From positions 774,881 to 838,880 of the forward strand of contig OZ220741.1 in the NCBI GenBank assembly GCA_965116885.1: DNA of 64,000 nucleotides, in the 5' to 3' direction. The notes under the pieces were generated by a model. That model ran no database searches, had not been told where the DNA came from, and saw nothing but the letters and a program-made list of their open reading frames with translations. Below, one piece after another: positions 4,701 through 29,493 of this stretch. The translations under genes were made by a program, and so were the position numbers. Source of the DNA: Candidatus Latescibacterota bacterium. Its GTDB lineage: Bacteria > Latescibacterota > UBA2968. The first letter of the stretch is position 1; each line of letters begins with the position of its first letter.

Positions 4701-4753
4701 GCCGCACTGGCCAAGCCAAGAGCGAAAATAACAATACAGCATTTCAAATTCAT
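1721..4753 (-). CDS. Large secreted protein, probable polysaccharide lyase (heparinase II/III-like / alpha-alpha toroid plus beta-sandwich architecture); function inferred
   Basis: About 1010 aa ORF; start chosen at MNLKCCIVIFALGLASAAMA (cleavable signal peptide) rather than upstream ATG at 4816; size and composition resemble heparinase II/III-type lyases; sits next to sulfatase block. Confidence 0.35.
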   Translation of the reverse strand: MNLKCCIVIFALGLASAAMAQDVSWRYDFEAMGESYQVDAGSEVSLSARRYKGGQQSLKWTWQNNGRLLFTDPAPGRNKALTGFRAWVYNEEALDEVLTFRFGTESELSANNPRYQFEFGLNFTGWRAMWIHLRDDARNRSYEGARNGRVTAFEIRASNSGAVYLDLMELVERIHPRRSPDAQVPFVNANRADRSREYRWSQNTLPGPLPTEITDDERQAFETIARRYEAWVLGDGVKDDEREPVRIRLNELKAYIRRGYRSLADYEIRREGDRILGKPLFAELSPYEPLFQSVFQGVLLRLVLDYRLNGNEEARDRVIDVFDYLHDQGWADGSGVGAMHHEFLRVAGYAHAVYLMRDILKDTERLERELATLKWFSMFGELYEGPQVLGANADFIRSVAMYRLLCILMMDDSPEKVANMRCYIAWLNNALSIAPGWLDTIKPDFVGFHHRGIYASGYAPNAFHVASVLVYLLHDTPFAVGDDKRDNLKQALLTSRIMANTYDISMAVNGRFPRNTAVATKLLPAYMYVALSYAPVDAELSGAFMQLWKPKSQLLIEDLFERVSVRLMYLHTPGAIQMMADFASAGYASATPPSGHWTLPYGALSIHRRADWMVSMKGWGKYVWDYESSGRNNPLGRYLSYGTMLVYASGDPVGREASGIVRDGWDWSMWPGTTVIRLSHEQLKHEGRDRNFSDETFVGGVNLKGQNGVFSLKLHDTRFNTSFRAVKTVFCFDDVLVCLGSGIENDDGGHTTVTPLFQAAISEDRSTGVNGERVHAIPYMFEGIKGQRVWVMDSLGNGYVVPDGGDLRVQRQEQVSKNYGRDSGGTGTFELAYLDHGSAPQDGFYEYAVLVQRSPDRVSAFANAPEYDVWQRDHKAHIVHHRGMKATGYALFDKDARPTDGAIVSVSLPSLVMSREVGDGLLLSVADPDFGWRWEIQTPHRQDGSLIVNQASMPRKVEVTVRGIWRLDGAYDLVDARVQADQTVVAFTCQDGKSVGVKLVKADRRLEKKN

Positions 4754-4827
4754 ACTCAGACCTCTAATACTATTTGGGACTGAATCGCGGCTGAAGCATG
4801 CCGCGATGACAACCAAAATCTTCTGAA

Positions 4828-6093
4828 TTACTGGCCTAATACCGGTGCATCTTCTGGCCTGGGAATATTCACAAAATAGGCAAAAACGGCAACTATCAAC
4901 ACTGCTGGTGCCAGCGCGTAAAACGCGGGCGCATAAGACCCCGCAGAACTAAAAACAGACTCAATAAACCACGGACCTGTTGCAGAAGCCAAAACCGCAA
5001 ACACCTGTGCCGCACCCTGAATTTTTCCCAAATGAAGACGGCCAAAAATATCTGCCCACGCCGTAAAAAAAATCACCGAAACCACACCCCCGGAAAACCC
5101 CAGCAATCCCGCATGTGTCAGCGCTTGCCCCGGTGTTTTAAGCTGCGGAAACAAAAGCAAATAAAGACCAACCGCCAGCATCGCAACCGTCATCAGCCTG
5201 CCCAAAGACCATCGGCGCGCCGCCCACCCCGCTGTAAAATTCCCCAACAAACCCGTCGCCATAAACGCCGCCATCGCGTATTGAAACACCGTCTCATCAA
5301 ACCCCAACTCCCCCAATATAGACTGATTGAACAGCATCACACCCGCAATAACCAGATTGTAGAGCGCACTCCCAATAGCAAACACATAAAAAGCCGGTGT
5401 CATCAACGCCTGTACAAGCGTAAACCCAATCACCGGCTCCTGCGGCTCATCATCTTTCACAACCTCGGTATCCAGCCCAACTGCCTCTGGATCTCGACGA
5501 ACAAATAGCAGACACAAACCAGATAGAATCATCAAAATCCACCCCAGCCCCGACCACATAACCCGCCAACCCTGCGTGAGCACAACATCACCAGCAACAA
5601 CAATCGCAACCGCAAAACCCAGACTCATAAGCACGGCGAAAATACCCATCGCAAAGCTCAACCGCCGCACAAACCACTTGCCAACCATCGTCAAACTCAC
5701 CACAGACAGCGCGCTTTGCCCCACACCCCGCATCAAAACCAGCAACAAAAGCAAAAAACCAGCACCTGTCATCTGGCTAAACCCCAAAACCACCAGACTC
5801 AGAACAAATAGCACCGCCGTCACAACAGCGCGAACCCCAAAGCGATCAATAGTTACACCGCAGACCAAATTGAACAACGCTCCCAAAATAGTCGCCCAGA
5901 AATTCATCCCGGCAAAATCGAGCCGAGAAATACCCAGATCCGCGATCAAAGGCTCTGTAATCAAACCAATACCAACACTTCTGCCCGGCAGCGTAGCCAC
6001 CATCGCAACCGCCGCAAAAACCAAAACCACCCAACCGTAATAAAACAGCATACGCGCGGGTAGCGCATTGTCAAAATTATTTTTTAAAATCAA
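4828..6093 (-). CDS. MFS (major facilitator superfamily) transporter
   Basis: 421 aa, about 12 predicted hydrophobic helices, motif ...GVTIDRFGVRAVV... between TM2 and TM3 typical of MFS. Confidence 0.8.
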   Translation of the reverse strand: MILKNNFDNALPARMLFYYGWVVLVFAAVAMVATLPGRSVGIGLITEPLIADLGISRLDFAGMNFWATILGALFNLVCGVTIDRFGVRAVVTAVLFVLSLVVLGFSQMTGAGFLLLLLVLMRGVGQSALSVVSLTMVGKWFVRRLSFAMGIFAVLMSLGFAVAIVVAGDVVLTQGWRVMWSGLGWILMILSGLCLLFVRRDPEAVGLDTEVVKDDEPQEPVIGFTLVQALMTPAFYVFAIGSALYNLVIAGVMLFNQSILGELGFDETVFQYAMAAFMATGLLGNFTAGWAARRWSLGRLMTVAMLAVGLYLLLFPQLKTPGQALTHAGLLGFSGGVVSVIFFTAWADIFGRLHLGKIQGAAQVFAVLASATGPWFIESVFSSAGSYAPAFYALAPAVLIVAVFAYFVNIPRPEDAPVLGQ

Positions 6094-6186: not shown

Positions 6187-6750
6187 TTAATCCGGTAAAC
6201 CAATTCGACCCCTAAAATTGTAAAACCTTTGCATCAGATGCTGAACATAAATTGGTGGTACAACTGCAATCCTATCTATACCGCCCTCTTCAATTGCACG
6301 ATAAATATTTAAAGTTGCAATACCAAAGACATTTTTGAAATCCATATACAAATCAGGTAGAGGTCGGACTTGATCACTATTTTCAATCGACGCTTCTTGA
6401 AGATGGTGATACCTTTCGTTTTGGTTACTCTTCACATTTCTAAACAAGCTCGAATTGAGCTGACTTCGCTGCCGAATATTTTCTTCCTCATAAACGTCAC
6501 AAAAAAAAATCTGAGCAAGCTCATTTTGTGGCTTTGGGGGGCCAGTAAATCGCGATACATAATCCCACTCTAAATCACAAGCCGGGTTCATCACCATTAC
6601 CAGATTATGTTCTATAGGATTAAATATTATTTCCAAATCTCGTGATGAAGCTTGAGCAGGTACATCTGCCACAAACTCATGTACACCATATAGTATCTCA
6701 CCCTGGATTAAGGCTCCAACTTCGGGGGAAGGTTCATATTTAAACGCCAC
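6187..6750 (-). CDS. Hypothetical protein (AT-rich island gene 3)
   Basis: 187 aa ORF, low GC, no recognisable motif; co-directional and tightly spaced with 6760-7326. Confidence 0.55.
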   Translation of the reverse strand: MAFKYEPSPEVGALIQGEILYGVHEFVADVPAQASSRDLEIIFNPIEHNLVMVMNPACDLEWDYVSRFTGPPKPQNELAQIFFCDVYEEENIRQRSQLNSSLFRNVKSNQNERYHHLQEASIENSDQVRPLPDLYMDFKNVFGIATLNIYRAIEEGGIDRIAVVPPIYVQHLMQRFYNFRGRIGLPD

Positions 6751-6759
6751 GTCACGTCC

Positions 6760-7326
6760 TCAACCGTCAATAATCAACTCTGGTCGAGGAATGGTTTTCC
6801 CGACTTTGGCTATTTTAGGTTGCGTCTCTTGCTCTTGGCTCTTCAACCGGAACCGGGCTGGCGGTGGTGGTTGTAAATGAAATTGAAGTATATCCGCCAA
6901 TGTTTCCAAAGCCTCTTCTAAGCCTTGAGATGGCAAACCCGATATGAGAAAATGACAAAAGAATCTCTGCGCGATCTCCCTGCTCTCGCCCTCCTGCTCA
7001 TTGTAAAAACTAATCTCTTGCCCCAAAGCACCCACGGTACCACTAAACCTCCAATATCCCTTTACATTTTCTATTTCATTCTGGTTCAAGAGCATATCTG
7101 AGCTTCGGGATGCGATCTCTCTACTCTCGCCCTCTTGCTCATTGTAAAAACTAATCTCTTGTCCTAAATCTCCCACAGTACCACTAAACTTCCAATATCC
7201 CTTTACATTTTCTATTTCATTCTGGTTCAAGGGCATATCTGAGCTTCGAGGAGAGAGTCCATCGGAAGAGGTCCCCCGCTGTGCGATTAAAGGATTTAAG
7301 AATTGAAGGAATTGCATCAAACTCAC
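6760..7326 (-). CDS. Hypothetical protein with internal 47-aa tandem duplication (AT-rich island gene 2); true start may be downstream because ORF overlaps upstream gene by 110 nt
   Basis: 188 aa; segment SSDM(P/L)LNQNEIENVKGYW(K/R)FSGTVG(D/A)LGQEISFYNEQEGESREIA occurs twice. Confidence 0.5.
   Translation of the reverse strand: MSLMQFLQFLNPLIAQRGTSSDGLSPRSSDMPLNQNEIENVKGYWKFSGTVGDLGQEISFYNEQEGESREIASRSSDMLLNQNEIENVKGYWRFSGTVGALGQEISFYNEQEGESREIAQRFFCHFLISGLPSQGLEEALETLADILQFHLQPPPPARFRLKSQEQETQPKIAKVGKTIPRPELIIDG
6971..7252. repeat. 141-bp direct tandem duplication (2 copies, about 92% identical) inside CDS 6760-7326
   Basis: Copy 1 6971-7111, copy 2 7112-7252; in-frame (47 codons). Confidence 0.85.
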
Positions 7327-7996
7327 TCCTTTCTTCGGTATAACAGTCTGTATCTATCAAATACTGCTCTTGATTATTTTTATAACTTAGACCATGTCGA
7401 AGCCTGACCTTCGATAGTCCTTTGATATCAACAATATCGAATTCTGCCTCAGAAATGATACGGGACGGTGCAGTCTGAAGGGTTGTATCGCCAAGCAACC
7501 CAATGAGAGCCGGATTCAATAATTCTGACCACGCTATACCATCTAAACCGATTTTTTCTCGCTCAATTATATCAATATACCTGAGTCCGATTCTGGTGTA
7601 AAAATTGGGTTTATACTCTTCGTCCAATGCCTCAGCAACCAGATTCATCTCCTGACTGAAATTCTCCCAACTCTTGTAGCCATTGTCCGTGAGAGCGATA
7701 AAGCCCTGAGTCAGATTGACATATTTTTTTTTATTTTCAGATGCAAACTTATGATTAGGCCCTTCGGGAGTTTTAAGAGAACCTATATTCGAAAGTTGTT
7801 CTACTATCCTGGAGAATTCCTCTGGAAGATATTGATTCTCTCCCTCATAATAGGGATATTGAGACCTTATTCGATCTTGGAAATTAGACGGCGGTTCACT
7901 TGCAATTTTCAAAATTTCAGGAAATCGCAACTGACAAATAACCCTCTGCAATGGGTTTTTTGCGAATATTATTCTGTCAGATTTGGGAAAGGCCAT
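7217..7996 (-). CDS. Hypothetical protein, resembles conserved uncharacterised family (possibly TIGR04255-like) (AT-rich island gene 1)
   Basis: 259 aa from MAFPKSDRIIFAKNPLQRVICQLRFPEILKI...; about 42% GC versus about 58% in flanking genes; family resemblance is from memory only. Confidence 0.5.
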   Translation of the reverse strand: MAFPKSDRIIFAKNPLQRVICQLRFPEILKIASEPPSNFQDRIRSQYPYYEGENQYLPEEFSRIVEQLSNIGSLKTPEGPNHKFASENKKKYVNLTQGFIALTDNGYKSWENFSQEMNLVAEALDEEYKPNFYTRIGLRYIDIIEREKIGLDGIAWSELLNPALIGLLGDTTLQTAPSRIISEAEFDIVDIKGLSKVRLRHGLSYKNNQEQYLIDTDCYTEERSEFDAIPSILKSFNRTAGDLFRWTLSSKLRYALEPE

Positions 7997-8060
7997 ATCA
8001 TAAATTGTTATTTTGATGAAACTCAAACTTTCACAGAATGAAATAGGCAAAACACTTTAC

Positions 8061-9043: not shown

Positions 9044-10432
9044 CTATATACTCGGCAAAGGTGCCGTATCACCCGTCTCGTGCTGCCACAGGCGAATCGC
9101 CGCCGCCATACTGCGAACGCGATCCCGGTGCTCGGGCGCATCGAACAAATTATTCTCCTCAAAAGGATCGGTATTCAAATCGAACAACTCGCACTGATCG
9201 CCCGCACACAAATTCAACTTCCACCGGTCGCCCGTCACAACACAGCGCCACGGCAGCGTCGCCACCAAATTGATATCGGGAGTTCCCAAATTGCGGTCGC
9301 CAATCCCATTCCACTCCATAAACGCCATGTGCGCCTTCAAATCGCGGTCGCCCGTCAAAGCACCCGCCACACTCTCACCCTGACACTGATCTGGAATCGG
9401 TACCCCCGCCAGATCCAAAAGCGTCGGAACCAGATCCGCGTGACCAAACACCCCATCCACCCGCGTCTGCTCCGCATTCAACCACGGCACATGCATCAAA
9501 AACGGAACCCGCGCCGACTCTTCGTAAAACGCCCGCTTCTCCCACATGCGGTGATCGCCCGCCATCTCGCCGTGATCGCTCGTAAACACAAAAATCGTAT
9601 TCTCCATCTGACCCGTCTCATCCAGCGCCTGCACCATCTGACCAATGGCATCATCCACAATTTTCACATTGCCCAAATACTGCGCCCGCAACTTTCGCCA
9701 ATTCTCATCCCGCGTCATATCTTCTGCCACAACCCGCGCATCCGTGGTATTGCGATAAAAATCCGAACGCACGCGGTTAAACAGCGAATGCCCCTCTGGA
9801 TGCTTCAAAAACGTCGGTCCCACCGGAATCTCCTCCGGATCGTACAACCCGTCATAAGGTCCCCGATAAGGCGGATGCGGCTCAAACGTACTGGCAACGA
9901 GCAGCCATGGCCGCCCCGTATGCTCGCGAATAAACCGCTCGGACTCCGCGCCCACATAAGCCCCAATCTGCGCGGAAGCCGGCATCTCCGCACGTTGCTG
10001 GGGCGTAAACCTGTTGGGCACATCCGGCGCAAAGCCCTGATCCACCAACCACTGGTGGTACCCACACCCATCCGCAATACTACACCACTCGTCAAACCCG
10101 TGCTGACAGTTGCCATCATCTCCCAGATGCCACTTGCCCACATACCCCTTGCGGTACGTATCGGGCATCATCTCCGCGATGGACAACGTCTCCTCCCTCA
10201 TCGGAATCCCATTGACCACACACCCATGCGAATGCGGATAAAGCCCGGTAATCAACGACCCCCGCGCCGGCGTACAAACCGCCTGCGTCACATAGGCATT
10301 CTCAAAAACAAAACTCCGCGCAGCCAGCGCGTCATGATGCGGCGACTGAATCCACTCATTGCCATAACACGCCATCGTATCCGTGCGCTGCTGATCTGTG
10401 ATAATAACTACTATATTTGGTTGACGCGACAT
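9044..10432 (-). CDS. Sulfatase (S1 family, formylglycine-dependent)
   Basis: 462 aa; N-terminal IVVIITDQQR and C-T-P-A-R-G-S-L-I-T-G formylglycine motif. Confidence 0.9.
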   Translation of the reverse strand: MSRQPNIVVIITDQQRTDTMACYGNEWIQSPHHDALAARSFVFENAYVTQAVCTPARGSLITGLYPHSHGCVVNGIPMREETLSIAEMMPDTYRKGYVGKWHLGDDGNCQHGFDEWCSIADGCGYHQWLVDQGFAPDVPNRFTPQQRAEMPASAQIGAYVGAESERFIREHTGRPWLLVASTFEPHPPYRGPYDGLYDPEEIPVGPTFLKHPEGHSLFNRVRSDFYRNTTDARVVAEDMTRDENWRKLRAQYLGNVKIVDDAIGQMVQALDETGQMENTIFVFTSDHGEMAGDHRMWEKRAFYEESARVPFLMHVPWLNAEQTRVDGVFGHADLVPTLLDLAGVPIPDQCQGESVAGALTGDRDLKAHMAFMEWNGIGDRNLGTPDINLVATLPWRCVVTGDRWKLNLCAGDQCELFDLNTDPFEENNLFDAPEHRDRVRSMAAAIRLWQHETGDTAPLPSI

Positions 10433-10434
10433 TG

Positions 10435-11772
10435 CTATCTCTCCTGAATTTTAAAATGCCTACCTTCTTTCGCTGCTTGCCATTGGTCTTCTGTATCGAT
10501 CTCCACGCCGGGATCGCCCTGTTGATTCATCCAGCAGTCCAGTTCGGCAGACAGGCGTTTCTTCGTCTCTGCGTGCGCGGGATCATCGACCAAATTATTC
10601 AACTCACAGGGATCCTCATCCATGCGATACAACTGCTCAGGGGGACGGCGCATGTATCGATCCACCAAAAACCGCGTATGCTCATTAAACGTCGTATCAA
10701 AAACCCATGTCGGCCAGTACTGGTGCCATCTAAACTGCCCCATCAGATGCTTCTCAATATAGATCGCCTCGGGCGTCAAATTGCGAATATAGTGATACGT
10801 ACCATCCGTCACCGCGCGGATCGGATAGGGCGGACCCTCGGGAATATTATTATGCATAAAATACGCGAACTCTCGATGTGCATCTGCCTCGCCCAAAAGC
10901 ACAGACATAAAACTCGACCCATCAAAATCAATCGCATCGGGATCGCCGCCCGCAGCCTCAATCAGCGTTGGTGCGACATCTTCATACTGAATAACCGCAT
11001 CGGTATATCCCGGCTTCACCACGCCGGGCCAGCGCACGATAAAACCCGTATGAACACCCGTATTCCAATTCGTCCACTTGCACCCGGGAAACTGCGACCC
11101 CTGCTCAGACGTAAAAATCACCAGCGTATTATCCGCCTGCCCGGACTCATCCAGCACCGATAGAATCTCACCCACCTCCTGATCCAGCACCTCGATCTCC
11201 GCCAAATACTTGGCATAATCACTCCGCGTCTCCTCTGTATCCGCCAGATACGGAGGCAACTTCAACGCATCCAGATCAAAATGCTCGGGATTGCCCAGCG
11301 TCCACGGCGCGTGCGGCTCAAAAAGACCTGCCACAAGACAAAAAGGCGCATCCCGATCTTGCTCCACAAACGCGCGAATACCCTCAACGCCAAACTCGGG
11401 ATCGGGATGTGTGCATCCCCCCTCAATACCCGGCACATATTCAAAAGGAAAACTCTTATTGGGACCCACATGCTTCTTGCCACACAGCCCCACGCGATAT
11501 CCCAGATCCCCCAGAAAATGCGGAAGACTCCTCGTCCCCGGACGCGCAGCAGAATGATTCCAGCACGAACCATTGCGCGCCGGGTACAACCCCGTATAAA
11601 GTGCCGTACGGCACGGATTGCACATCGCCATAGGCAAATACGCCCGATTAAAAACCAGACCATCCCGCGCCAACCCGTCAATATTCGGCGTATCCACATT
11701 CTGCCCACCGTAAAGCGACAAATCGAGATACGTCGCATCATCTGCAATCACGATCAAAATATTCGGTCCCAT
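10435..11772 (-). CDS. Sulfatase (S1 family)
   Basis: 445 aa; ILIVIADD... and C-N-P-C-R-T-A-L-Y-T-G motif. Confidence 0.9.
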   Translation of the reverse strand: MGPNILIVIADDATYLDLSLYGGQNVDTPNIDGLARDGLVFNRAYLPMAMCNPCRTALYTGLYPARNGSCWNHSAARPGTRSLPHFLGDLGYRVGLCGKKHVGPNKSFPFEYVPGIEGGCTHPDPEFGVEGIRAFVEQDRDAPFCLVAGLFEPHAPWTLGNPEHFDLDALKLPPYLADTEETRSDYAKYLAEIEVLDQEVGEILSVLDESGQADNTLVIFTSEQGSQFPGCKWTNWNTGVHTGFIVRWPGVVKPGYTDAVIQYEDVAPTLIEAAGGDPDAIDFDGSSFMSVLLGEADAHREFAYFMHNNIPEGPPYPIRAVTDGTYHYIRNLTPEAIYIEKHLMGQFRWHQYWPTWVFDTTFNEHTRFLVDRYMRRPPEQLYRMDEDPCELNNLVDDPAHAETKKRLSAELDCWMNQQGDPGVEIDTEDQWQAAKEGRHFKIQER

Positions 11773-13211
11773 AACCCCTCCTTTTTAAGTCCCAATCGCA
11801 CCAACAACTCTGACGGCGCATCAATAGCGCGCAATTTCTCAACCATCAAATTTTGCATACGAGCCAGCGCATCGGATTCACTATCGGCGAGATCATTCTC
11901 CTGATCGGGATCCGAAGGCATGTGATACAACCGCGTCTTGTGCTTCTCGGGATGTCGCGCAGGCGTCTGCTTGCTCCGCAGCACATCGGCACCCCAATCA
12001 AACTGATTCCGATTCGCAATAATACTCGAATAAGCATACACCGGCGGATTGGACTCATCCACCCCCTGCAACAGCACATACTCCCCATCGGTAATATTGC
12101 ACGTCCCCGAAAACTGACCGTACAAAATCGCATCGCGCCCGGGCGCATCCTCATCCCTCAGAAACGGAATCAAACTCTGCCCGTGCAAATTCACCCCATC
12201 GGGCACCGCCAACCCCATGGCCTCCACCACAGTCGGAAAATAATCAACCGGCTGAACAAACTGCACGGGACGCGCACCGTGACCAAACTCGGGATGCCAC
12301 ACAATCATCGGAATCCGCGTAATCTCATTCCAGAGCACCCAATTCTTTCCCGTGCGCCCGTGATCGCCATTGTGCGTCCCGTGATCCGACGCGAGAATAA
12401 TCATCGTATTATCCATCAACCCCATATTCTCAACCTGATCCAGAAAATGCCCCACCCAGCGATCCACCATCGTCACCTCACCCGCATAAATCGCCTGCAC
12501 CCGCTTCAACTCCGCCGCCGTCAAATTGCCATCCACCCAATCGTACGGCGCCACCGGATACTCCATCACATCGTCTTCCGAATCATCGTACAACTTCACA
12601 TAGTGGCGTGGCGGATCCCATGGCTCGTGCGGATCAAAAGAATCAATCATCAAAAAGAACTCTTGATCCGCATTGTGCTGAAGCCATCGCGCCGCCCGTG
12701 AAAACAACTGCGGCGAAAACCAATCGCGTTCTTCCTTGCGGATATATTGCGCATTGCGAAAATGCGGTTGCTCGGGCCTGTTATGCGGCGGATAATCCAG
12801 CGTCCGATTCTCAAAAACAATATCCGAATCCGTCACATACCGGTCCCGCTCCTGCCCGCGCACAAAATCAAATCCCGAAAACGGACGCCAGTACCCACTG
12901 CCCGGATTGCTCGTCCAGTGGTGATACACATCCGTAAAAAAGTAGGACACCTTACCCGCCTCATGCACCGTCCCACCCAGCGTCACATCATCCGGCTCTA
13001 TACCGCCCCACCCCCGCCACGGAAACTCGTATCGCCCCGTCGCAATATCCCGGCGACACGGCAGCGTAGGATACGAAGCCAAATACGCATTCTCAAAAAC
13101 CGCGCCCCGCTCGGCAAAACGATCTATATTCGGCGTGTGAATCCGAGAATTGTCATAACACCCCACATGATCTCGACGCCAGGTATCCAGCACAATCAGA
13201 ATGACATTCAT
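11754..13211 (-). CDS. Sulfatase-family (alkaline phosphatase superfamily) protein with non-canonical active site: Thr replaces the formylglycine Cys (T-L-P-C-R-R-D-I-A-T-G)
   Basis: 485 aa; VILIVLDTWRRDH...; aligned on the conserved TG, the position of FGly-Cys is Thr and a Cys sits at +3. Confidence 0.75.
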   Translation of the reverse strand: MNVILIVLDTWRRDHVGCYDNSRIHTPNIDRFAERGAVFENAYLASYPTLPCRRDIATGRYEFPWRGWGGIEPDDVTLGGTVHEAGKVSYFFTDVYHHWTSNPGSGYWRPFSGFDFVRGQERDRYVTDSDIVFENRTLDYPPHNRPEQPHFRNAQYIRKEERDWFSPQLFSRAARWLQHNADQEFFLMIDSFDPHEPWDPPRHYVKLYDDSEDDVMEYPVAPYDWVDGNLTAAELKRVQAIYAGEVTMVDRWVGHFLDQVENMGLMDNTMIILASDHGTHNGDHGRTGKNWVLWNEITRIPMIVWHPEFGHGARPVQFVQPVDYFPTVVEAMGLAVPDGVNLHGQSLIPFLRDEDAPGRDAILYGQFSGTCNITDGEYVLLQGVDESNPPVYAYSSIIANRNQFDWGADVLRSKQTPARHPEKHKTRLYHMPSDPDQENDLADSESDALARMQNLMVEKLRAIDAPSELLVRLGLKKEGLWDRIF

Positions 13212-13221
13212 AAAAAACTCC

Positions 13222-13884
13222 TCATGTTAAAACTTCTTCTACCCTCACCCGCAGATCCGCCACAGAATCACCCGCGGCATTGAGCACCACAGGACCATCA
13301 TAACCATTCGCCTTGAGCGCGCGGACCACATCCACATCATCCTCCCCAATCGTCACCATCCCGATACGTTCCACATACTTATCCACAATCCCAACAGCGT
13401 TATCAACATCCATCGCATTGAGCCAGACATGCGCGCGCTCGGGCAAATCGGGCATCAAAGCGTCAAAATCCGCCGCACTTTCCAAACACGTATCCACCCC
13501 ATTCCCGATATTCAGCGTCACATCGGGAATATTCTCAAGCAACGCATGCACACCCCTCACCAGAGCCTCACGCGCCTCGCGGGAACGCGCACCACAGAGA
13601 AAATTGGCACACCGCAAGCGGAGTGCCCGCGCCAGATGAACATCCCACTCAACCTGCCGCAAATTGGAACCCGGATCATCGCGCACATGTAACCCCATCA
13701 ACGCCACCCCCGCATCATCGAAATAATCGCGAATCATCCTCACCGAAGCATCTGGATGAAAAGGCGAACTCGCCGTAAACGCACAATGCAACACCATAGC
13801 ATCAAAACCCGCTGCCTTCGCAATCTTCAAGGCAGCGGGCAACACAGCTTTTGGACACATAACAGGATCAAAACACAAACGCAA
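13222..13884 (-). CDS. Sugar phosphate isomerase/epimerase-like TIM-barrel protein (small)
   Basis: 220 aa; hydrophobic beta/alpha pattern similar to 8104-8931 family; weak. Confidence 0.5.
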   Translation of the reverse strand: MRLCFDPVMCPKAVLPAALKIAKAAGFDAMVLHCAFTASSPFHPDASVRMIRDYFDDAGVALMGLHVRDDPGSNLRQVEWDVHLARALRLRCANFLCGARSREAREALVRGVHALLENIPDVTLNIGNGVDTCLESAADFDALMPDLPERAHVWLNAMDVDNAVGIVDKYVERIGMVTIGEDDVDVVRALKANGYDGPVVLNAAGDSVADLRVRVEEVLT

Positions 13885-13905
13885 AACAAACCTCCTTCCC
13901 TCGTC

Positions 13906-14685
13906 TCACATCCCCTCCCAATACGCCCACATATCATCCGGATCTTCAAACTTGAGATCATCCCAATTCGTCCACCGAAAACGCGTAATAATCGCCATGC
14001 GAATCTCATCGCTGCAATTCATACTCGCGCTGTGAATCAAATGACTGTGCCAGAGCATCGCGGATCCCGCCGGCCCAGAAATCTCTTCATAATCCTCTTC
14101 ATCCCAATCGAGAATCTCCAGCGGCCTCGTCGAACGCGGCTCCCCCTCGTAAATCGGCAACTGGTAAAACGCCTTACCCAGGCTCACCCGCGAATGGGTC
14201 TTAAAATAATCCGCCATGTGCTTATGTGTCCTCGGCCACACGCAGGTACCCCCACCCTGGGGCTTCACATCATTGAGATACAGCGTAATACCCACCGTCC
14301 AATTATTCACAACACCGCTGCCAAGCCCGTGGCCATCCATATGATTACCTCTGGGACCTACCCATTCACCACCCTGTGGAAACCGCAAATTCGCCGACGT
14401 AATTGGCGGATGCAAAGGCGCCAGCCGCCCCTTACCAGCCAACTCCTCAACCATACTGTACAGCGGCGAATCGTAAATCAGCGCGTGAAATGCCGCGTGC
14501 CCATCCATCCCCTGAGACCCCTCTTTCCCAACCCACGAAGAAGGATCATTGCGATCCACAGGCAAATGATCCCAGATCACATCTCGCGCAGCTGCCATCT
14601 GCGCGGGCGTCACCACATCGCGTTTAATCACATAGCCCTTCTCTCGAAACACCTCTTTATCATCAACCGTCAAATACGCCATCAC
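13906..14685 (-). CDS. Phytanoyl-CoA dioxygenase (PhyH) family Fe(II)/2-oxoglutarate oxygenase
   Basis: 259 aa; H-M-D motif (NHMDGHG) and distal His (LIHSASM). Confidence 0.75.
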   Translation of the reverse strand: MMAYLTVDDKEVFREKGYVIKRDVVTPAQMAAARDVIWDHLPVDRNDPSSWVGKEGSQGMDGHAAFHALIYDSPLYSMVEELAGKGRLAPLHPPITSANLRFPQGGEWVGPRGNHMDGHGLGSGVVNNWTVGITLYLNDVKPQGGGTCVWPRTHKHMADYFKTHSRVSLGKAFYQLPIYEGEPRSTRPLEILDWDEEDYEEISGPAGSAMLWHSHLIHSASMNCSDEIRMAIITRFRWTNWDDLKFEDPDDMWAYWEGM

Positions 14686-16136
14686 ACGCTCCTTCCGTCT
14701 GCGATATACCGCTCGACCATCTCCCTGAACTCGCGCACAATACCCGGTTCCTGGTTAAACTTATTATACGACTCAAACGGATCATCCCCCATATGATAAA
14801 GCTGACCCCTTGACCCCGGCACAGGACCCGTGCCCGCACACCCATCCACACCGCGCCCCATATCTCCAGAATTATCACAATCGCCAATCAACTTCCAATC
14901 CCCTCGCCGAATCGAAAACACCCCCATGCAGGAATGGTGTATCAAATCATCCCGAACAGGCTCAGTCTCCCCCATCAACGCGGGTAAAAAACTCGCACTA
15001 TCTTCCCCCGCATCCTCAGGAAGCGTCTCCCCCACAATATCCGCCACAGTCGCCATAAAATCCTGCAACCCGACCAGCGCATCGCAAACCGAATTCGGCG
15101 CAACAACACCCGGCCAGCGCGCGATAAACGGCTCTCTGTGTCCTCCCTCCCAGATAAACCCCTTAAAACCGCGCCAATCACCGCAAGACTTGTGACCATA
15201 CGTGCGTCCATTACACCCGGGCAACGCCCCATTATCACTCGTCACAATAACCAGCGTATCATCCGCCAAATCACAGCGATCCAGCGCATCCATCACCTGC
15301 CCCACCATCCAGTCAACCAGCGCGACCATATCCCCCCGGGGACCTGCCTCACTCGCACCGCGCAAAAACTCCGGCACGCATTCGACCGTACACGGTTCAT
15401 GCGGCGCAGAAGCCGCCAGATAAAGAAAAAAAGGCGTATCTTCATCCTCTGCCCGCTCCTCAATATACGCCACAGCCTTCTCCGTAAAAGCCGGATCCGC
15501 CTCCTTGTGGTCCCAATCTGGAACCATCAACCCGCGCCGACCACCCGCCATCTCAACCGGCTTTTGCACACTCGGAATACCCACCGTCTGATCCTGATCG
15601 ATAAAACAATAAGGCGGTTGCGCCGTCGAACAACCCGATGTCCCGTAAAACCTGTCAAACCCCAACTCAATCGGTCCGCCAGCAATCGGCTTTGAAAAAT
15701 CGATCTTATCTTCCTCCACCGGATCGGGTGATCCACCCGGCCACGGCAGGGGCTGATCAAAATCAAACACCTCACCATCCTTCACACCCCAGCCCAAACC
15801 CAAATGCCACTTACCAAAACATCCCGTGTGATATCCACACTTCTTCAACAAAGAAGCCACCGTCATACGCTCAGGCTCAATCAATGGCAGTTCGTAATTG
15901 AACAACACATGAGACTTCAATTCGGTGCGCCAGCAATAACGCCCGGTCAAAATCCCGTATCGCGTGGGCGTACACACCGCCGAAGGCGAATGTGCATCTG
16001 TAAACCGCATCCCCTCGCGCGCCAACCGATCCATATACGGCGTGGGAATCTTCGACTGCGGATTATAACACCCCACATCGCCATAGCCCATATCATCGGC
16101 GAGGATATAAACAATATTTGGACGTGTATTAGACAT
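14682..16136 (-). CDS. Sulfatase (arylsulfatase-like, S1 family)
   Basis: 484 aa; NIVYILADDMGYGDVGCYN and C-T-P-T-R-Y-G-I-L-T-G. Confidence 0.9.
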   Translation of the reverse strand: MSNTRPNIVYILADDMGYGDVGCYNPQSKIPTPYMDRLAREGMRFTDAHSPSAVCTPTRYGILTGRYCWRTELKSHVLFNYELPLIEPERMTVASLLKKCGYHTGCFGKWHLGLGWGVKDGEVFDFDQPLPWPGGSPDPVEEDKIDFSKPIAGGPIELGFDRFYGTSGCSTAQPPYCFIDQDQTVGIPSVQKPVEMAGGRRGLMVPDWDHKEADPAFTEKAVAYIEERAEDEDTPFFLYLAASAPHEPCTVECVPEFLRGASEAGPRGDMVALVDWMVGQVMDALDRCDLADDTLVIVTSDNGALPGCNGRTYGHKSCGDWRGFKGFIWEGGHREPFIARWPGVVAPNSVCDALVGLQDFMATVADIVGETLPEDAGEDSASFLPALMGETEPVRDDLIHHSCMGVFSIRRGDWKLIGDCDNSGDMGRGVDGCAGTGPVPGSRGQLYHMGDDPFESYNKFNQEPGIVREFREMVERYIADGRSV

Positions 16137-16138
16137 CT

Positions 16139-16552
16139 CTAACCTCTCATATCAATCCACGGTTCATCCCCCGACACATCGACCAGCACCTCACCATCGA
16201 ATTTAGCCGGAGACAAAATCGCCAAAAAAACCAGATCCTCATCCCCGGCATTATACGTCCCATGCACCATATCCATCGGAATATGCGCCGCATCCCCCGG
16301 ACCCAGAATTTGCGAAACCCTATCCACCCACTGTTCCGCCGTCCCCGAAATCACATAAATAACCTCTTCCATACACGGATGGCGATGAAACGCGTGCGCC
16401 TTGCCCGGCGGCATCGTCACCCGCACCAGCAACAAATGATCCGCCTCGGTCAACCCCTCCCGACTGATCCACTCGTGCGGCCCCCACGGCAATTCCTCCA
16501 CCTGCACATCGTCTTGCGCGATAAACCTCAACACATCAGATTTTGGCATCAC
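16139..16552 (-). CDS. Cupin domain protein
   Basis: 137 aa; HRHPCMEEVIYVISG...HIPMDMVHG two-motif cupin signature. Confidence 0.75.
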   Translation of the reverse strand: MMPKSDVLRFIAQDDVQVEELPWGPHEWISREGLTEADHLLLVRVTMPPGKAHAFHRHPCMEEVIYVISGTAEQWVDRVSQILGPGDAAHIPMDMVHGTYNAGDEDLVFLAILSPAKFDGEVLVDVSGDEPWIDMRG

Positions 16553-17941
16553 TCACTCCTGCGGCAATTCCTCGGCACAGATATCGATCTCCTCGATCAG
16601 CCGCGCCAGATCTGCTTCTACTTCTGCCTGCACATCGGCATACGCCGGATCGCCGTACACACTCGTCATCTCCCAGGGATCCTTCTCCAAATCGAACAAA
16701 TCGCGCTCGCCGGTTCGATGTACCGCGAGCGTATAATTTTGCGTACGCACGCCATAGTGCTTCGTCGGCCCATCCCAATACGCATAAAAAGCCGACTGCC
16801 GCCAATCTTCGGGCGTCTTCCCCTCGCACAGCGCGCGAAAACTCCTGCCCTGCACCTGTGCATCGGGTTGCAACCCGGCAAAATCGAGATACGTCGCGCC
16901 AAAATCCACATTCACCACAATATCCTCATTCACCGAACCCGGTGCAATCGCCCCTGGATACCGCATCACATAAGGCATGAGCAGCGACTCCTCCAGAATC
17001 AATCGCTTGTCAAAATACGAATGCTCGCCCAAAAACATACCCTGGTCAGAAGTATATACCACAATCGTATTCTCCGTCAACCCCTCCTCATCCAGATAAT
17101 CCAGCAACCGCCCCACACCCTCATCAATCGCCGTAATACACCGCAAATAATCCTTCACATACTTCTGATAAGCCGCGTGAATCTTCTCCGTCGTACTCAT
17201 CCCCGTCGTATCCAACCGCCCCGTGGGCCACTCCCTTCCCCGGAGGCCCTCATCCATCCGCTCGGCCTGCATCAGTATCGTACGGTGGTGATCCTCCAAC
17301 GCGCTGGACACCTTGTCAAACGGCTTATACAAATTCGACGGCTCGGGCAAATCCCCATCCGTGAACAAATCCGCATGACGAGGCGCGTACTCCCACAAAC
17401 CATGGGGCGCTTTGTGATGGCACAGCATCAAAAAGGGCTTATCCGGATCGCGCGCCTTCAACCAATTGAGCGACAAATCCGTAATAATATCCGTCGCATA
17501 CCCCTCGTACTGCGTCGGCTCGCCATTGCGCGTAAACGACGGATCAAAATAAGCACCCTGCCCCGGCAACACCTCCCAATAATCAAACCCATCCGGATCA
17601 GACCCCAAATGCCACTTACCCGCAATACCCGTTTGATACCCAGAAGCCTGCAACTGCCGCACAAAATTGGGATGATCGTCACTCAGAGGTTGATTCAACC
17701 GCAACACCCCATTTTTATGGCTGTATTGCCCCGTAATAATACTCGCCCTGCTCGGCGAACACAGCGCATTATTGCAAATACAATTGTCAAACCGCATCCC
17801 CTCATTGGCGATGCGGTCAATATTCGGTGTATCCACCACCTCATTCAGCCATCCGTTATAACAACTAATGGCATTCACAGTGTGATCATCAGACATAATG
17901 TAGAGAATATTGGGACGCGAATCAGACATTAAACCCTCCAT
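16553..17941 (-). CDS. Sulfatase (S1 family)
   Basis: 462 aa; NILYIMSDDH and C-S-P-S-R-A-S-I-I-T-G. Confidence 0.9.
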   Translation of the reverse strand: MEGLMSDSRPNILYIMSDDHTVNAISCYNGWLNEVVDTPNIDRIANEGMRFDNCICNNALCSPSRASIITGQYSHKNGVLRLNQPLSDDHPNFVRQLQASGYQTGIAGKWHLGSDPDGFDYWEVLPGQGAYFDPSFTRNGEPTQYEGYATDIITDLSLNWLKARDPDKPFLMLCHHKAPHGLWEYAPRHADLFTDGDLPEPSNLYKPFDKVSSALEDHHRTILMQAERMDEGLRGREWPTGRLDTTGMSTTEKIHAAYQKYVKDYLRCITAIDEGVGRLLDYLDEEGLTENTIVVYTSDQGMFLGEHSYFDKRLILEESLLMPYVMRYPGAIAPGSVNEDIVVNVDFGATYLDFAGLQPDAQVQGRSFRALCEGKTPEDWRQSAFYAYWDGPTKHYGVRTQNYTLAVHRTGERDLFDLEKDPWEMTSVYGDPAYADVQAEVEADLARLIEEIDICAEELPQE

Positions 17942-17953
17942 TTGAAAAAAATA

Positions 17954-19216
17954 TCACCGCTCCGGAACATAATCATCAATAAATTCCGGCATCATATCCA
18001 GCACCTTTTGCAAGCGTTCACGCGCCGCTTCAGAATCGGCATCGCCCAGCCCCAAAACAATATCGTGTTCTTCCAGCCGATCCGCAGGCACATCGTAAAA
18101 CCGGCCATCGTGATAAATTTTAAACCGATGTTCTCGCGCAAACTGCCCCGCGTGATCTTGACCAAAACCAAAACGCGGGTTGTAATGACAAAAAATCCAA
18201 TCCCTCGGATCGCCCCGTTCGCCCCGCAACTGGGGCAAAAAACTGCGCCCATCGCACGGCATCCCCTCCGGAATGGGCGCATCGGCCAAATCCATCAGCG
18301 TCGGCAAAAAATCGCTAAAATCCACCAGATCATCTAACACTATGCCCTCTGGCGCCACACCCTTCCAAAAAGCAATAAAAGGCACATGCGTCCCCGCATC
18401 GGGCATCGTACCCTTACCCCCCACAATCTCAACACCACCCTCAAGCTGGGACGTAATCGTGCGATGCGTACCATTATCACTCGTAAACATCACCAGTGTA
18501 TTCTCGAGCAAATCCAGCGCCTCGAGCTTCTCCACAATCCGCCCCACCAGCTTATCCGCATACGCCACCATATCGGCAAAATAGCGCGTATCCTGCTCAC
18601 CTCTCCGATCTCTATCCCGCCACTCCGGACTATCGGGCGTGGGAACAAAAGGCGCGTGAACCAGAATCATCGGATAATAAGCAAAAAAAGGCACATCCCG
18701 ATGTCGCTCAATAAAATCCAGCAAATAATCACAACAAATATCGGGACCATACCGATCTTGAATATAATCGTCGGGCAACCATTCCCCATTACATTCAATT
18801 TGCGGATTTGCATATCGTCTCTTACCCGTGCGAGTACCATCTTCTGGCGGCGGGGTCATATTCCACAAACAATGCTCGTCAAACCCAAAATGCGCGGGCA
18901 TCTTATTGTCCTTGCTCAACTGCCACTTGCCCGCAACACATGTTGCATACCCCGCATCCTGTAACAAATTGCCAAACGTCTTTTCTCTGGGATTCAAATA
19001 GGCGAACCTGTCGTAATTCCGAAAATTGTACTGCCCCGTCATAATCTCCACGCGAGAAGGCGTACACAAAGGCGTCGAATAACAATGTGAAAAGCGAATC
19101 CCCCGCGCTGCCAGATCATCCAACACTGGCGTCTCATACGTCGTACTCCCATAACAACTCAAACACTCAAATCCCATATCATCTGCCATAATCAACACAA
19201 CATTTGGTCTCGCCAT
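17954..19216 (-). CDS. Sulfatase (S1 family)
   Basis: Start MARPNVVLIMADDMGFE with GGAGGAG RBS; C-T-P-S-R-V-E-I-M-T-G. Confidence 0.9.
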   Translation of the reverse strand: MARPNVVLIMADDMGFECLSCYGSTTYETPVLDDLAARGIRFSHCYSTPLCTPSRVEIMTGQYNFRNYDRFAYLNPREKTFGNLLQDAGYATCVAGKWQLSKDNKMPAHFGFDEHCLWNMTPPPEDGTRTGKRRYANPQIECNGEWLPDDYIQDRYGPDICCDYLLDFIERHRDVPFFAYYPMILVHAPFVPTPDSPEWRDRDRRGEQDTRYFADMVAYADKLVGRIVEKLEALDLLENTLVMFTSDNGTHRTITSQLEGGVEIVGGKGTMPDAGTHVPFIAFWKGVAPEGIVLDDLVDFSDFLPTLMDLADAPIPEGMPCDGRSFLPQLRGERGDPRDWIFCHYNPRFGFGQDHAGQFAREHRFKIYHDGRFYDVPADRLEEHDIVLGLGDADSEAARERLQKVLDMMPEFIDDYVPER

Positions 19217-19373
19217 ACGCTCCTCCATTAAATAAACCCGAGCCAATTTAATACGACAACATCTCTATATCAACCCTCTTCTGGCACCACTATGAATCTG
19301 GTTGACACACCAATGCTACAGATGATACTATTATATTTCCGTGGAAACAACAGAACAAAGGGAAGGACAAAAA

Positions 19374-20222
19374 ATGAACATCTCGCTCACATCAACAGAA
19401 CGAAGCTCTGGTGAACTGGCAAAAGACAAATTGGCAAATGCGATAGAGGCAATACGGCACGACGGCTATGTCATCATCGAGCAAGTGGTAAATCACGCGA
19501 TCCTCGACGCCCTCAAAACGCGCATGGACGAAGACTCTGCAAAGCTAATTGAAGCACAAAAATGGGGTGGCGCAGGTGGCGTACAGGGTCATTTACAGCA
19601 AGGTCCGCCACCATTTGACCCATACCTATCCCCAGACATCCTTGTCAATCCCTATGCCATTCAGATCTCACGAGAAATGCTGGGCACAGGGTTTTACTGT
19701 TGCTTTTACAACGGCAACACCAATACGCCAAACAGCACCTTTCAACCCCTTCATTCTGACGGCGTTCACCTCTGGGGAGAGCAAAACCGCCCCCATCCAG
19801 CAACCCAACTCATCATCAACATCTTTCCCCAGGACACATCTGACAAAAACGGATCGACACAAATCTGGCCAGGCTCACACCTCGATATGCGCCCGGTAAC
19901 AGACGAAACAGAAGCCGATCGTCGATCCTTTTCACCCCCCATTCAGGCCACCCTCCAAAAAGGCGACATCCTGATCCGCGATTCGCGCCTCTGGCATCGC
20001 GGCGTACCAAATCCCTCCGATCACAACCGCCACATGATCGCAGTTGTGTACAACATCGGATGGCTGGTCAAACGGCGAACACTCTTCTTCGATAAAAGCA
20101 GTAAAAAAATATTCGAAGCAGGTGGCGTCGATCCCAATGCCGAATTCATCGATCCTCCGTTCGAATACCTGTTTGAAATGGCGTGCAGAAAAATAAAAAA
20201 CGATCCCATGCGCGGCGTCTAA
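19374..20222 (+). CDS. PhyH-family Fe(II)/2OG dioxygenase (only plus-strand gene of the block; lower GC)
   Basis: H-S-D (PLHSDGVHLW) and distal His (LWHRGV); start MNISL preferred over upstream ATG 19341. Confidence 0.7.
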   Translation: MNISLTSTERSSGELAKDKLANAIEAIRHDGYVIIEQVVNHAILDALKTRMDEDSAKLIEAQKWGGAGGVQGHLQQGPPPFDPYLSPDILVNPYAIQISREMLGTGFYCCFYNGNTNTPNSTFQPLHSDGVHLWGEQNRPHPATQLIINIFPQDTSDKNGSTQIWPGSHLDMRPVTDETEADRRSFSPPIQATLQKGDILIRDSRLWHRGVPNPSDHNRHMIAVVYNIGWLVKRRTLFFDKSSKKIFEAGGVDPNAEFIDPPFEYLFEMACRKIKNDPMRGV

Positions 20223-20336
20223 ACCACTTCATTCTCGCCTGGCATAACCGCCCAATCGGTACGCAGTTCCGCGACGTGTTCGCCCAGTTCGCTATCGCTG
20301 AGGGGATGGACCGGTCGCATGGGCTGATCTCCTATC

Positions 20337-21620: not shown

Positions 21621-21632
21621 GGTTGTCTCCCC

Positions 21633-23441: not shown

Positions 23442-23490
23442 TGAACAATTATCAGGTCTTTTTCAGATCTTCCCTGGCCAGATCATCCAT

Positions 23491-29476: not shown

Positions 29477-29493
29477 AGATATTTCCTTTCCGA

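What the first reader, a model, noticed from the sequence alone, without database searches (positions are those of the whole stretch)
11754..13211. Sulfatase-fold protein with Thr in place of the formylglycine-forming Cys
The seven other sulfatases in the window all have C-x-P-x-R aligned 10 residues before the conserved TG. This paralog has T-L-P-C-R-R-D-I-A-T-G, with Thr at the nucleophile position and the Cys displaced to +3. Thr or Ser nucleophiles at this position characterise phosphodiesterase and phosphatase branches (NPP, LtaS-like) of the alkaline-phosphatase superfamily. This enzyme is therefore probably not a sulfatase despite its context. It may be a phosphoester or phosphono hydrolase, or a non-FGly sulfatase.
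Basis: seen in the sequence. Interest (0 to 1): 0.5.

Follow-up and report, generated by a model that had tools for sequence, protein, structure and literature searches.

The report
Sulfatase-fold enzyme with threonine nucleophile
This gene encodes an intact, cytoplasmic sulfatase-fold enzyme in which threonine replaces the cysteine that normally becomes the formylglycine catalytic residue; it belongs to a large, uncharacterised family where this swap happened repeatedly, each time with loss of a neighbouring histidine, so it probably no longer works as a classical sulfatase.

Summary
ORF 11754-13211(-) encodes a 485-aa protein with T49-L-P-C-R...T58-G59, where seven neighbouring paralogs have C-x-P-x-R...[TS]-G.

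By sequence, profile and predicted structure it belongs to the S1 sulfatase / phosphonate-monoester-hydrolase branch. It does not belong to the NPP or LtaS branches.

Thr49 is not a defect. In 332 aligned homologs from bacteria and archaea, 230 have Thr, 101 Cys and 1 Ser at this position. The Thr-type proteins keep the metal ligands and catalytic residues at 99-100% (D9, R53, D94, H195, E196, D276, H277, K289).

The nucleophile switched several times, and the query clade is nested among Cys-type members. Each switch is coupled to residue 95, which is His in 98/101 Cys-type and 1/230 Thr-type proteins. Thr-type proteins also relax the small-residue constraints at +1 and +3 of the formylglycine signature.

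Most likely this is an active, formylglycine-independent metallo-enzyme that uses Thr49 directly, probably on phosphate esters (inferred). A Thr-based sulfatase is not excluded.

I found no characterised member, no curated family and no paper describing it.

It is a new variant of a known kind and of moderate to high interest.

The parts
11754..13211 (-). Coding sequence of the Thr-type sulfatase-fold protein (485 aa, no signal peptide)
   Evidence: ORF present; Pfam PF00884 5e-37 over residues 2-333 plus SGSH_C; AF2 model with pLDDT 92.9
13218..13223 (-). GAGGAG ribosome-binding site 6 nt upstream of the ATG, overlapping the stop codon of the upstream gene
   Evidence: read directly from the sequence
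13167..13187 (-). D9-T10-W-R-R-D14-H15. D9 is the first metal ligand. T10 stands where S1 sulfatases have a second Asp and PMH-like enzymes have Gln
   Evidence: D9 100% and T/S10 99% in both Thr- and Cys-type members
13035..13076 (-). Nucleophile signature S46-Y-P-T49-L-P-C-R53-R-D-I-A-T58-G59
13065..13067 (-). ACG codon of Thr49, the residue at the formylglycine position
12918..12932 (-). D94-V95-Y96-H97-H98 loop, the counterpart of the S1 'G-K-x-H' loop. Residue 95 is His in Cys-type relatives and never His in Thr-type
12609..12638 (-). F-D-P-H195-E196-P-W-D-P-P family signature. H195 is the counterpart of the S1 general-acid His in the 'P-H-x-P' motif
   Evidence: H195 and E196 100%
12345..12386 (-). 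D276-H277-G...G-D-H284-G...G-K289. D276 and H277 are metal ligands. K289 is the counterpart of the S1 sulfate-binding Lys
   Evidence: D276 100%, H277 99%, K289 100%
10435..11772 (-). Downstream canonical Cys-type sulfatase whose start overlaps the target's 3' end by 19 nt (same operon)
13222..13884 (-). Upstream co-directional gene, a weak xylose-isomerase-like TIM barrel, ending 10 nt before the target's ATG

Best explanation
The gene encodes a catalytically active, cytoplasmic, metal-dependent hydrolase or transferase of the S1-sulfatase / phosphonate-monoester-hydrolase fold. It has given up the formylglycine mechanism and uses the hydroxyl of Thr49 directly as nucleophile. The proposed mechanism is inferred. 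A divalent metal held by D9, T49, D276 and H277 (with T10 nearby) activates the Thr49 alkoxide. This is the same ligand set as the nucleophile-side metal of alkaline phosphatase, NPP, LtaS and EptA. The anionic ester is bound by R53, K289 and H97. H195 protonates the leaving group. A covalent Thr-O-phosphoryl intermediate is formed and then resolved by water or by an acceptor hydroxyl, possibly with help from the family-specific D94 or E196. The most likely substrate class is a phosphate mono- or diester of a small cytoplasmic metabolite or sugar, not a sulfate ester. The enzyme descends from formylglycine-type ancestors in a family where the Cys-to-Thr switch occurred repeatedly.
For: Shown:
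- Thr49 aligns to the formylglycine position.
- Among 332 family members, 230 have Thr, 101 Cys, 1 Ser, and no Thr-type clade uses Ser.
- Thr-type members conserve D9 100%, T/S10 99%, R53 100%, D94 99%, H195 100%, E196 100%, D276 100%, H277 99% and K289 100%. They are therefore enzymes, not decayed copies.
- Residue 95 is His in 98/101 Cys-type and 1/230 Thr-type proteins. Isolated Thr members nested among Cys-type ones (P0150, P0133, P0144, L072) have also lost it. This is as expected if His95 serves the formylglycine gem-diol chemistry and is useless with Thr.
- The SulfAtlas signature positions +1 and +3 are obeyed by 92% and 97% of Cys-type members but only 41% and 22% of Thr-type. This argues that Thr-type proteins are no longer substrates of the formylglycine machinery.
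- Thr-type proteins carry Arg109 in 78% of cases (3% in Cys-type) and mostly lack the Glu at position 100 found in 72% of Cys-type, giving a more cationic loop.
- Neighbours of Cys-type genes are enriched in sulfatases (6/34), GHL6 (6/34) and alpha-L-fucosidase (5/34). Thr-type neighbours are not (sulfatase 3/71, no fucosidase).
- The nearest characterised relatives (PehA, PMHs, arylsulfatases, choline sulfatase, Mn-arylsulfatase) are the promiscuous phosphoryl/sulfuryl-transfer group (PMC12421950).

Established knowledge: every characterised alkaline-phosphatase-superfamily enzyme with a Ser/Thr nucleophile (AP, NPP, iPGM, phosphopentomutase, PhnA, LtaS, EptA/MCR-1) acts on phosphorus. Cys-to-Ser variants of sulfatases that stay unmodified are inactive or trap the sulfo-enzyme.
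Against: - No substrate evidence of any kind exists, and no characterised homolog.
- In this window the gene is translationally coupled to canonical sulfatases. One other member of its clade (P0012) is followed by three sulfatases, which would also fit a sulfatase role.
- The anion-binding residues K289, H195 and R53 are the same as in the Cys-type sisters.
- K289 occupies the position where binuclear phosphatases have a His ligand for the second metal. It is therefore unclear how a phospho-Thr intermediate would be hydrolysed. Single-metal Thr enzymes of this Pfam family are transferases.
Confidence: 0.5

Rival explanations
1. It is still a sulfatase, but formylglycine-independent. Thr49 attacks sulfur, and the Thr-O-sulfate intermediate is hydrolysed by water activated by D94, E196 or H97. 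This would free a cytoplasmic enzyme from dependence on a maturation enzyme.
For: It lies in an operon with seven cytoplasmic Cys-type sulfatases, a PL8 lyase and an MFS transporter. P0012 is followed by three sulfatases. The query clade is nested among Cys-type members whose context is sulfated-glycan degradation. The anion-binding residues are unchanged relative to the Cys-type sisters. No FGE or anSME gene was found in the 64 kb window.
Against: No natural sulfatase with a Ser/Thr nucleophile is known. In S1 enzymes an unmodified Ser gives a dead-end sulfo-enzyme (established knowledge). Across 71 neighbours of Thr-type genes only 3 are sulfatases, and four of six loci of the query clade have no adjacent sulfatase. 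The seven neighbouring paralogs keep Cys, so the organism clearly can mature formylglycine.
Confidence: 0.17
2. It is a phosphoryl (or sulfuryl) transferase or mutase rather than a hydrolase. The covalent Thr49 intermediate is passed to an acceptor hydroxyl, as in LtaS/EptA, phosphopentomutase or iPGM.
Against: There is no membrane anchor and no lipid-linked context. Sequence and structure are closer to hydrolytic S1/PMH enzymes. There is no conserved partner gene that would suggest a donor/acceptor pathway.
Confidence: 0.15
3. Thr49 is post-translationally oxidised, for example by a radical-SAM maturase, to a 3-keto residue. Its hydrate would then act like the formylglycine gem-diol, giving a 'methyl-formylglycine' sulfatase.
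For: P51, R53, T58 and G59 of the maturation/active-site signature are retained. The SulfAtlas paper notes that oxidation of Thr would give a ketone (PMC5066984). From memory, unverified here: anSME was reported to oxidise threonyl or allo-threonyl peptides in vitro.
Against: His95, which tracks the formylglycine state, is lost in 229/230 Thr-type proteins. Signature positions +1 and +3 are relaxed to bulky residues. No maturase gene lies in the window or next to Thr-type genes. There is no precedent in vivo.
Confidence: 0.04
4. It is a non-catalytic pseudo-enzyme, a binding or regulatory protein derived from a sulfatase.
For: It has lost the canonical nucleophile and lacks a conserved genomic context.
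Against: Metal ligands and catalytic residues are conserved at 99-100% across 230 divergent Thr-type sequences from many phyla, and Thr49 itself is invariant with no drift to Ala, Gly or Ser.
Confidence: 0.05

Closest known systems
Cys-type members of the same family (e.g. Paenibacillus thalictri P0094, Cohnella, Ktedonobacter, Chloroflexota; uncharacterised)
   Same: They share 37-45% identity over the full length. They have the same family motifs D-[TS]-x-R-R-D-H, S-x-P-X-x-P-x-R-R-D-x-x-T-G, D94...H97, F-D-P-H-E-P-W-D-P-P and D-H-G...G-K. They also lack a signal peptide.
   Different: They have Cys (C-M-P-A-R, a complete formylglycine signature) and His95. Their neighbours are sulfatases, alpha-L-fucosidases, GHL6 and ABC sugar transporters.
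S1 formylglycine sulfatases and phosphonate monoester hydrolases of the 'D-Q' group (BT1918 S1_46 7oz8; SpAS1/2 4upi/4upl; RlPMH 2vqr; BcPMH/PehA 2w8s; choline sulfatase; EfAS 9koq)
   Different: All use formylglycine and all have the G-K-x-H lysine loop. Identity is only 16-26%. The query scores 130-141 bits against NCBIfam cut-offs of 481-900.
LtaS / EptA / MCR-1 / OpgB-type phospho-transferases (Thr-bearing members of Pfam PF00884)
   Same: They have a Thr nucleophile on the same structural position, a single metal bound by acidic residue + Thr + Asp + His, and the same Pfam family. The SulfAtlas paper already noted 30 Thr proteins in the PF00884 seed.
Nucleotide pyrophosphatase/phosphodiesterase (NPP) and alkaline phosphatase
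   Same: Same superfamily core, and a Thr/Ser nucleophile activated by a metal with a D/T/D/H ligand set.

Membership tests
SulfAtlas S1 (formylglycine-dependent sulfatases) | Sulfatase N-terminal alpha/beta domain plus C-terminal subdomain | tested here: met
SulfAtlas S1 (formylglycine-dependent sulfatases) | Cys or Ser at the nucleophile position of (C/S)-x-(P/A)-x-R, convertible to formylglycine | tested here: not met
   Thr49, codon ACG. In SulfAtlas, 100% of 4058 S1 sequences have C or S (PMC5066984).
SulfAtlas S1 (formylglycine-dependent sulfatases) | [quoted passage not shown] | tested here: not met
   The query Y-P-T-L-P-C-R-R-D-I-A-T-G fails at 5 of 13 positions: Y47, T49, L50, C52 and A57.
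SulfAtlas S1 (formylglycine-dependent sulfatases) | Metal ligands D-D ... D-(N/H) | tested here: inconclusive
   D9, D276 and H277 are present, but the second Asp is Thr10. Metal binding itself cannot be tested here.
SulfAtlas S1 (formylglycine-dependent sulfatases) | G-K-x-H loop (PAS Lys113/His115) | tested here: not met
   The loop reads T-D94-V-Y-H97. The Lys is replaced by D94 or V95 depending on the alignment, and the His is probably H97.
SulfAtlas S1 (formylglycine-dependent sulfatases) | General-acid His in P-H-x-P and the distal Lys (PAS His211, Lys375) | tested here: met
   H195 and K289 align and are 100% conserved.
SulfAtlas S1 (formylglycine-dependent sulfatases) | Sulfate-ester hydrolase activity | not testable with these tools
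   Needs an enzyme assay.
Phosphonate monoester hydrolase / PehA / arylsulfatase group | Score above the curated NCBIfam cut-off; formylglycine; D-Q motif | tested here: not met
   PehA scores 129.9 bits against a cut-off of 900, and PRK13759 scores 140.7 against 481. The query has Thr49 and D-T instead of D-Q.
NPP / type I phosphodiesterase (PF01663) | Full-length match and a binuclear Zn site (D, H, H for the second metal) | tested here: not met
LtaS / EptA-type phospho-transferases | N-terminal membrane domain; family HMM match | tested here: not met
   The protein starts 8 residues before D9, so there is no room for a membrane domain. NCBIfam LtaS scores 17 bits against 970 and EptB 15.2 against 493.
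LtaS / EptA-type phospho-transferases | Thr nucleophile with acidic/Thr/Asp/His single-metal ligand set | tested here: met
   D9, T49, D276 and H277 by alignment. This is a resemblance in mechanism, not in membership.

The most novel reading that the evidence does not exclude
Nature has repeatedly exchanged the formylglycine nucleophile for threonine inside one sulfatase family while keeping the rest of the active site. The Thr-type enzymes, including this one, would then be either the first formylglycine-independent sulfatases (Thr-O-sulfate intermediate, or a keto-Thr cofactor) or a natural sulfatase-to-phosphatase switch achieved with essentially two active-site substitutions (Cys49Thr plus loss of His95).
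Probability: 0.2. Interest if true: 0.85.

Novelty: new variant of a known kind. Interest (0 to 1): 0.6.

Why it matters
The alkaline-phosphatase superfamily is the textbook system for how nucleophile identity (Ser, Thr, formylglycine) relates to phosphate versus sulfate chemistry. Until now these nucleophiles defined separate, anciently diverged branches.

This family offers natural, closely related Thr/Cys pairs at 37-45% identity, with several independent switches and a single tightly coupled second-shell change (His95). That makes the question directly testable by swapping two residues.

There are also practical consequences:
- Hundreds of genes annotated 'sulfatase' or 'arylsulfatase A-like' in Planctomycetota, Latescibacterota, Armatimonadota, Chloroflexota, Bathyarchaeia and others are probably not formylglycine sulfatases. 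They inflate sulfatase counts used to infer sulfated-polysaccharide degradation.
- If any of them is a sulfatase that needs no maturation enzyme, it would be attractive for biotechnology.

Tried and rejected
- **Register shift placing Cys52 in the formylglycine slot.** Rejected. There is no indel relative to the Cys-type sisters, and Cys52 is clade-specific.
- **Sequencing error or pseudogene.** Rejected. The codon is ACG, the ORF is intact with a ribosome-binding site, and the motif is the same in four assemblies.
- **Membership in the NPP or LtaS branches.** Rejected.
- **Conserved operon partner that would name the substrate.** None found. Eight encoding-contig look-ups and Pfam scans of 71 Thr-type and 34 Cys-type neighbours gave only weak, scattered associations for Thr-type.
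- **FGE or anSME in the window.** None found among 40 scanned ORFs.
- **Literature.** Eight full-text searches for a Thr-type S1 or 'TxPxR' sulfatase, pseudo-sulfatase, or anSME acting on threonine found nothing relevant. The only related item is the SulfAtlas remark on Thr in the PF00884 seed. This covers open-access PMC and bioRxiv only.
- **Curated family.** No NCBIfam model reaches its cut-off for the query or for 10 diverse members.
- **Active-site geometry and a possible second metal site (D94, E196, H97, H195).** Could not be examined, because the model coordinates are not exposed.
- **afdb50 fold search.** Unavailable.
- **Direction of the switches.** NJ with bootstraps shows the query clade nested among Cys-type members. 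It does not resolve whether the two deep Thr clades are ancestral or independently derived.
Full report
**1. The observation**

The minus-strand ORF 11754..13211 encodes a 485-aa protein beginning MNVILIVLDTWRRDH.... A GAGGAG ribosome-binding site lies 6 nt upstream of the ATG and overlaps the stop codon of the upstream gene. The 3' end overlaps the start of the next sulfatase gene by 19 nt, so the gene sits inside an operon.

A motif scan of all long ORFs finds exactly seven other proteins with C-x-P-x-R-x4-[TS]-G. This one reads T49-L-P-C-R-R-D-I-A-T58-G59. HMMER alignments to solved sulfatases put T49 on the formylglycine position without gaps.

The Thr codon is ACG. The same motif occurs in three Candidatus Latescibacterota chromosomes at 95-97% protein identity, which identifies the source lineage, and in a 307-member 90% cluster.

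**2. What kind of protein it is**

- Pfam gives Sulfatase PF00884 at 5e-37 over residues 2-333, plus the S1-type C-terminal module. The only hit to the NPP family is a 56-residue partial match.
- No NCBIfam model reaches its cut-off. The nearest are arylsulfatase PRK13759, PehA, choline sulfatase and Mn-arylsulfatase. LtaS, EptB and YejM score 15-18 bits.
- An AlphaFold2 model built on an 81-sequence alignment is confident (pLDDT 92.9, pTM 0.93).
- The Foldseek top 50 PDB matches are all S1 sulfatases or phosphonate monoester hydrolases.
- A family profile is closest to BT1918 (S1_46), SpAS1/2 and the PMHs.

The protein therefore belongs structurally to the formylglycine branch, not to the classical Thr branches.

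**3. A large family with both nucleophiles**

A search of 5.8 billion proteins returned 1566 hits at E<=1e-10. An exhaustive scan of 1.84 billion 50%-identity representatives gave 758 at E<=1e-30.

The family motifs are:
- D9-[TS]10-x-R-R-D-H
- S-x-P-X49-x-P-x-R53-R-D-x-x-T-G
- D94-x-x-H97
- F-D-P-H195-E196-P-W-D-P-P
- D276-H277-G...G-K289

.

In 332 aligned members, position 49 is Thr in 230, Cys in 101 and Ser in 1. Thr-type proteins conserve D9, R53, H195, E196, D276 and K289 at 100%, and T/S10, D94 and H277 at 99%. This excludes a decayed pseudo-enzyme.

About 90% of members have fewer than 15 residues before D9, so the family is cytoplasmic.

**4. What changes with the nucleophile**

The column most informative about Thr versus Cys, apart from position 49 itself, is residue 95. 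It lies in the loop that corresponds to the S1 'G-K-x-H' loop lining the formylglycine.
- Residue 95 is His in 98/101 Cys-type proteins (and in the single Ser-type).
- It is His in 1/230 Thr-type proteins, which have T, V or I instead.
- Isolated Thr members nested among Cys-type ones (P0150, P0133, P0144, L072) have also lost His95.
- A few Cys-type members without His95 (P0132, P0075, P0057) cluster next to one of these. The coupling is therefore seen in several independent events.

Thr-type proteins also violate the SulfAtlas catalytic-site pattern at +1 and +3. Compliance is 41% and 22%, against 92% and 97% in Cys-type.

Most Thr-type proteins carry Arg109 (78% versus 3%) and lack the Glu at position 100 that 72% of Cys-type proteins have.

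My reading is that His95 and the small +3 residue serve formylglycine formation and gem-diol chemistry, and become dispensable once Thr is the nucleophile.

**5. Evolution**

I built neighbour-joining trees rooted on the seven in-window sulfatases, with the active-site columns removed.
- The query clade (T-L-P-C-R; Latescibacterota, Planctomycetota, Kiritimatiellota, Lentisphaeria, Sumerlaeota) is nested among Cys-type members in 100/100 bootstraps.
- Query plus Cys-type forms a group apart from two large deep Thr-type clades in about 72/100 bootstraps.

The nucleophile therefore switched several times, and parsimony gives about 7 changes. The tree does not resolve whether the deep Thr clades are ancestral.

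**6. Context**

The window is a cytoplasmic desulfation cluster. It holds a secreted PL8 chondroitinase-ABC-like lyase, an MFS transporter, two xylose-isomerase-like TIM barrels, eight sulfatase-fold proteins without signal peptides and six PhyH dioxygenases.

This context is not conserved across the family:
- Within the query clade, two loci are flanked by housekeeping genes.
- One is followed by three sulfatases.
- One lies beside a PcRGLX-type lyase and an FAD oxidoreductase.
- One has no informative neighbours.
- Over 71 immediate neighbours of Thr-type genes, the commonest families are GFO/IDH/MocA (4), sulfatase (3), TIM barrel (3) and GNAT (3).
- Of 34 Cys-type neighbours, 6 are sulfatases, 6 GHL6 and 5 alpha-L-fucosidases. 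Two Cys-type loci that were examined in full also hold ABC sugar transporters.

The two types thus differ in genomic company as well as in the active site.

**7. Mechanism**

- Shown: the residue identities, their conservation, the fold and the covariation.
- Inferred: a metal bound by D9/T49/D276/H277 activates Thr49. R53, K289 and H97 bind the anionic ester. H195 protonates the leaving group. A covalent Thr-O-P intermediate is resolved by water or by an acceptor.

I favour a phosphoester substrate because every characterised Ser/Thr-nucleophile member of the superfamily acts on phosphorus. In addition, unmodified Ser in S1 sulfatases is catalytically dead, and the nearest characterised relatives are promiscuous phosphoryl/sulfuryl hydrolases (PMC12421950).

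Weak points:
- There is no substrate evidence.
- K289 sits where hydrolytic binuclear enzymes have a metal-binding His.
- The role of the family-specific D94, E196 and T10 is unknown.

Rivals are a Thr-based sulfatase, a transferase or mutase, a keto-Thr cofactor and a pseudo-enzyme.

**8. Comparison and novelty**

The SulfAtlas paper defines S1 by Cys or Ser only. It notes Thr proteins in the PF00884 seed and describes one uncharacterised group with a T-x-N-x-E motif in place of (C/S)-x-P-x-R. I found no paper, solved structure or curated model for a Thr-x-Pro-x-Arg clade nested within the formylglycine branch. This absence holds only within the open-access literature searched.

I rate it a new variant of a known kind. 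The fold and superfamily are ordinary. The nucleophile state, its recurrence and its coupling to His95 appear undescribed.

**9. Verdict**

It is right that this is not a formylglycine sulfatase, wrong about branch affinity, and unproven about the substrate.
- Interest is 0.6.

Noticed in passing
window 9044-24879 (eight sulfatase-fold ORFs) and 1721-4816: All eight sulfatase-fold proteins lack a signal peptide, with beta-strand 1 starting within about 20 residues of the start codon. The PL8 chondroitinase-ABC-like lyase has a clear signal peptide. Desulfation in this cluster therefore appears to be entirely cytoplasmic, after import, possibly via the MFS transporter at 4828-6093.
   Followed up: partly
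window 13906-14685(-), 19341-20222(+), 25604-26443(-), 26457-27293(-), 28520-29602(-), 29494-30264(-): Six PhyH-family (PF05721) Fe/2-oxoglutarate dioxygenase genes are interleaved with the sulfatases. This is an unusual density with no obvious role in glycosaminoglycan breakdown.
   Followed up: no
window 10435-11772(-): The Cys-type sulfatase immediately downstream has S-E-Q-G where sulfatases have D-(H/N)-G, the two C-terminal metal ligands. It also has Cys at +3 (C-N-P-C-R). This is a rare ligand variant.
   Followed up: no
window 9044-10432(-): This sulfatase has D-Q-Q-R-T-D (Gln instead of the second metal-binding Asp), as in phosphonate monoester hydrolases and S1_46. It is the in-window paralog most like the target's family.
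   Followed up: no
window ~10435-10450 versus L011 12765-20311: In the closest genome (Latescibacterota OZ242311.1), about 7.5 kb separate the homologs of two sulfatase genes that are adjacent in the window. This is an indel at the gene junction.
   Followed up: no
L072 9998-11497 (Anaerolineae MAG DATKWG010000136.1): This family member has Thr in an otherwise Cys-type motif (S-Y-P-T-M-P-A-R-R-D-I-Y-T-G) and Asn at both positions 95 and 97. It may be a very recent switch or a decaying copy.
   Followed up: partly
L001 8480-9871, L005 9468-10871, L009 5254-6702: A PF12831 FAD-dependent oxidoreductase lies next to family members in three unrelated loci, two Thr-type and one Cys-type. This is a possible weak functional link.
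   Followed up: no
window 54560-57034(-), 27422-28516(-), 6187-8050(-): Several sizeable ORFs (824, 364, 187, 188 and 277 aa) have no Pfam match at E<=0.001.
   Followed up: no
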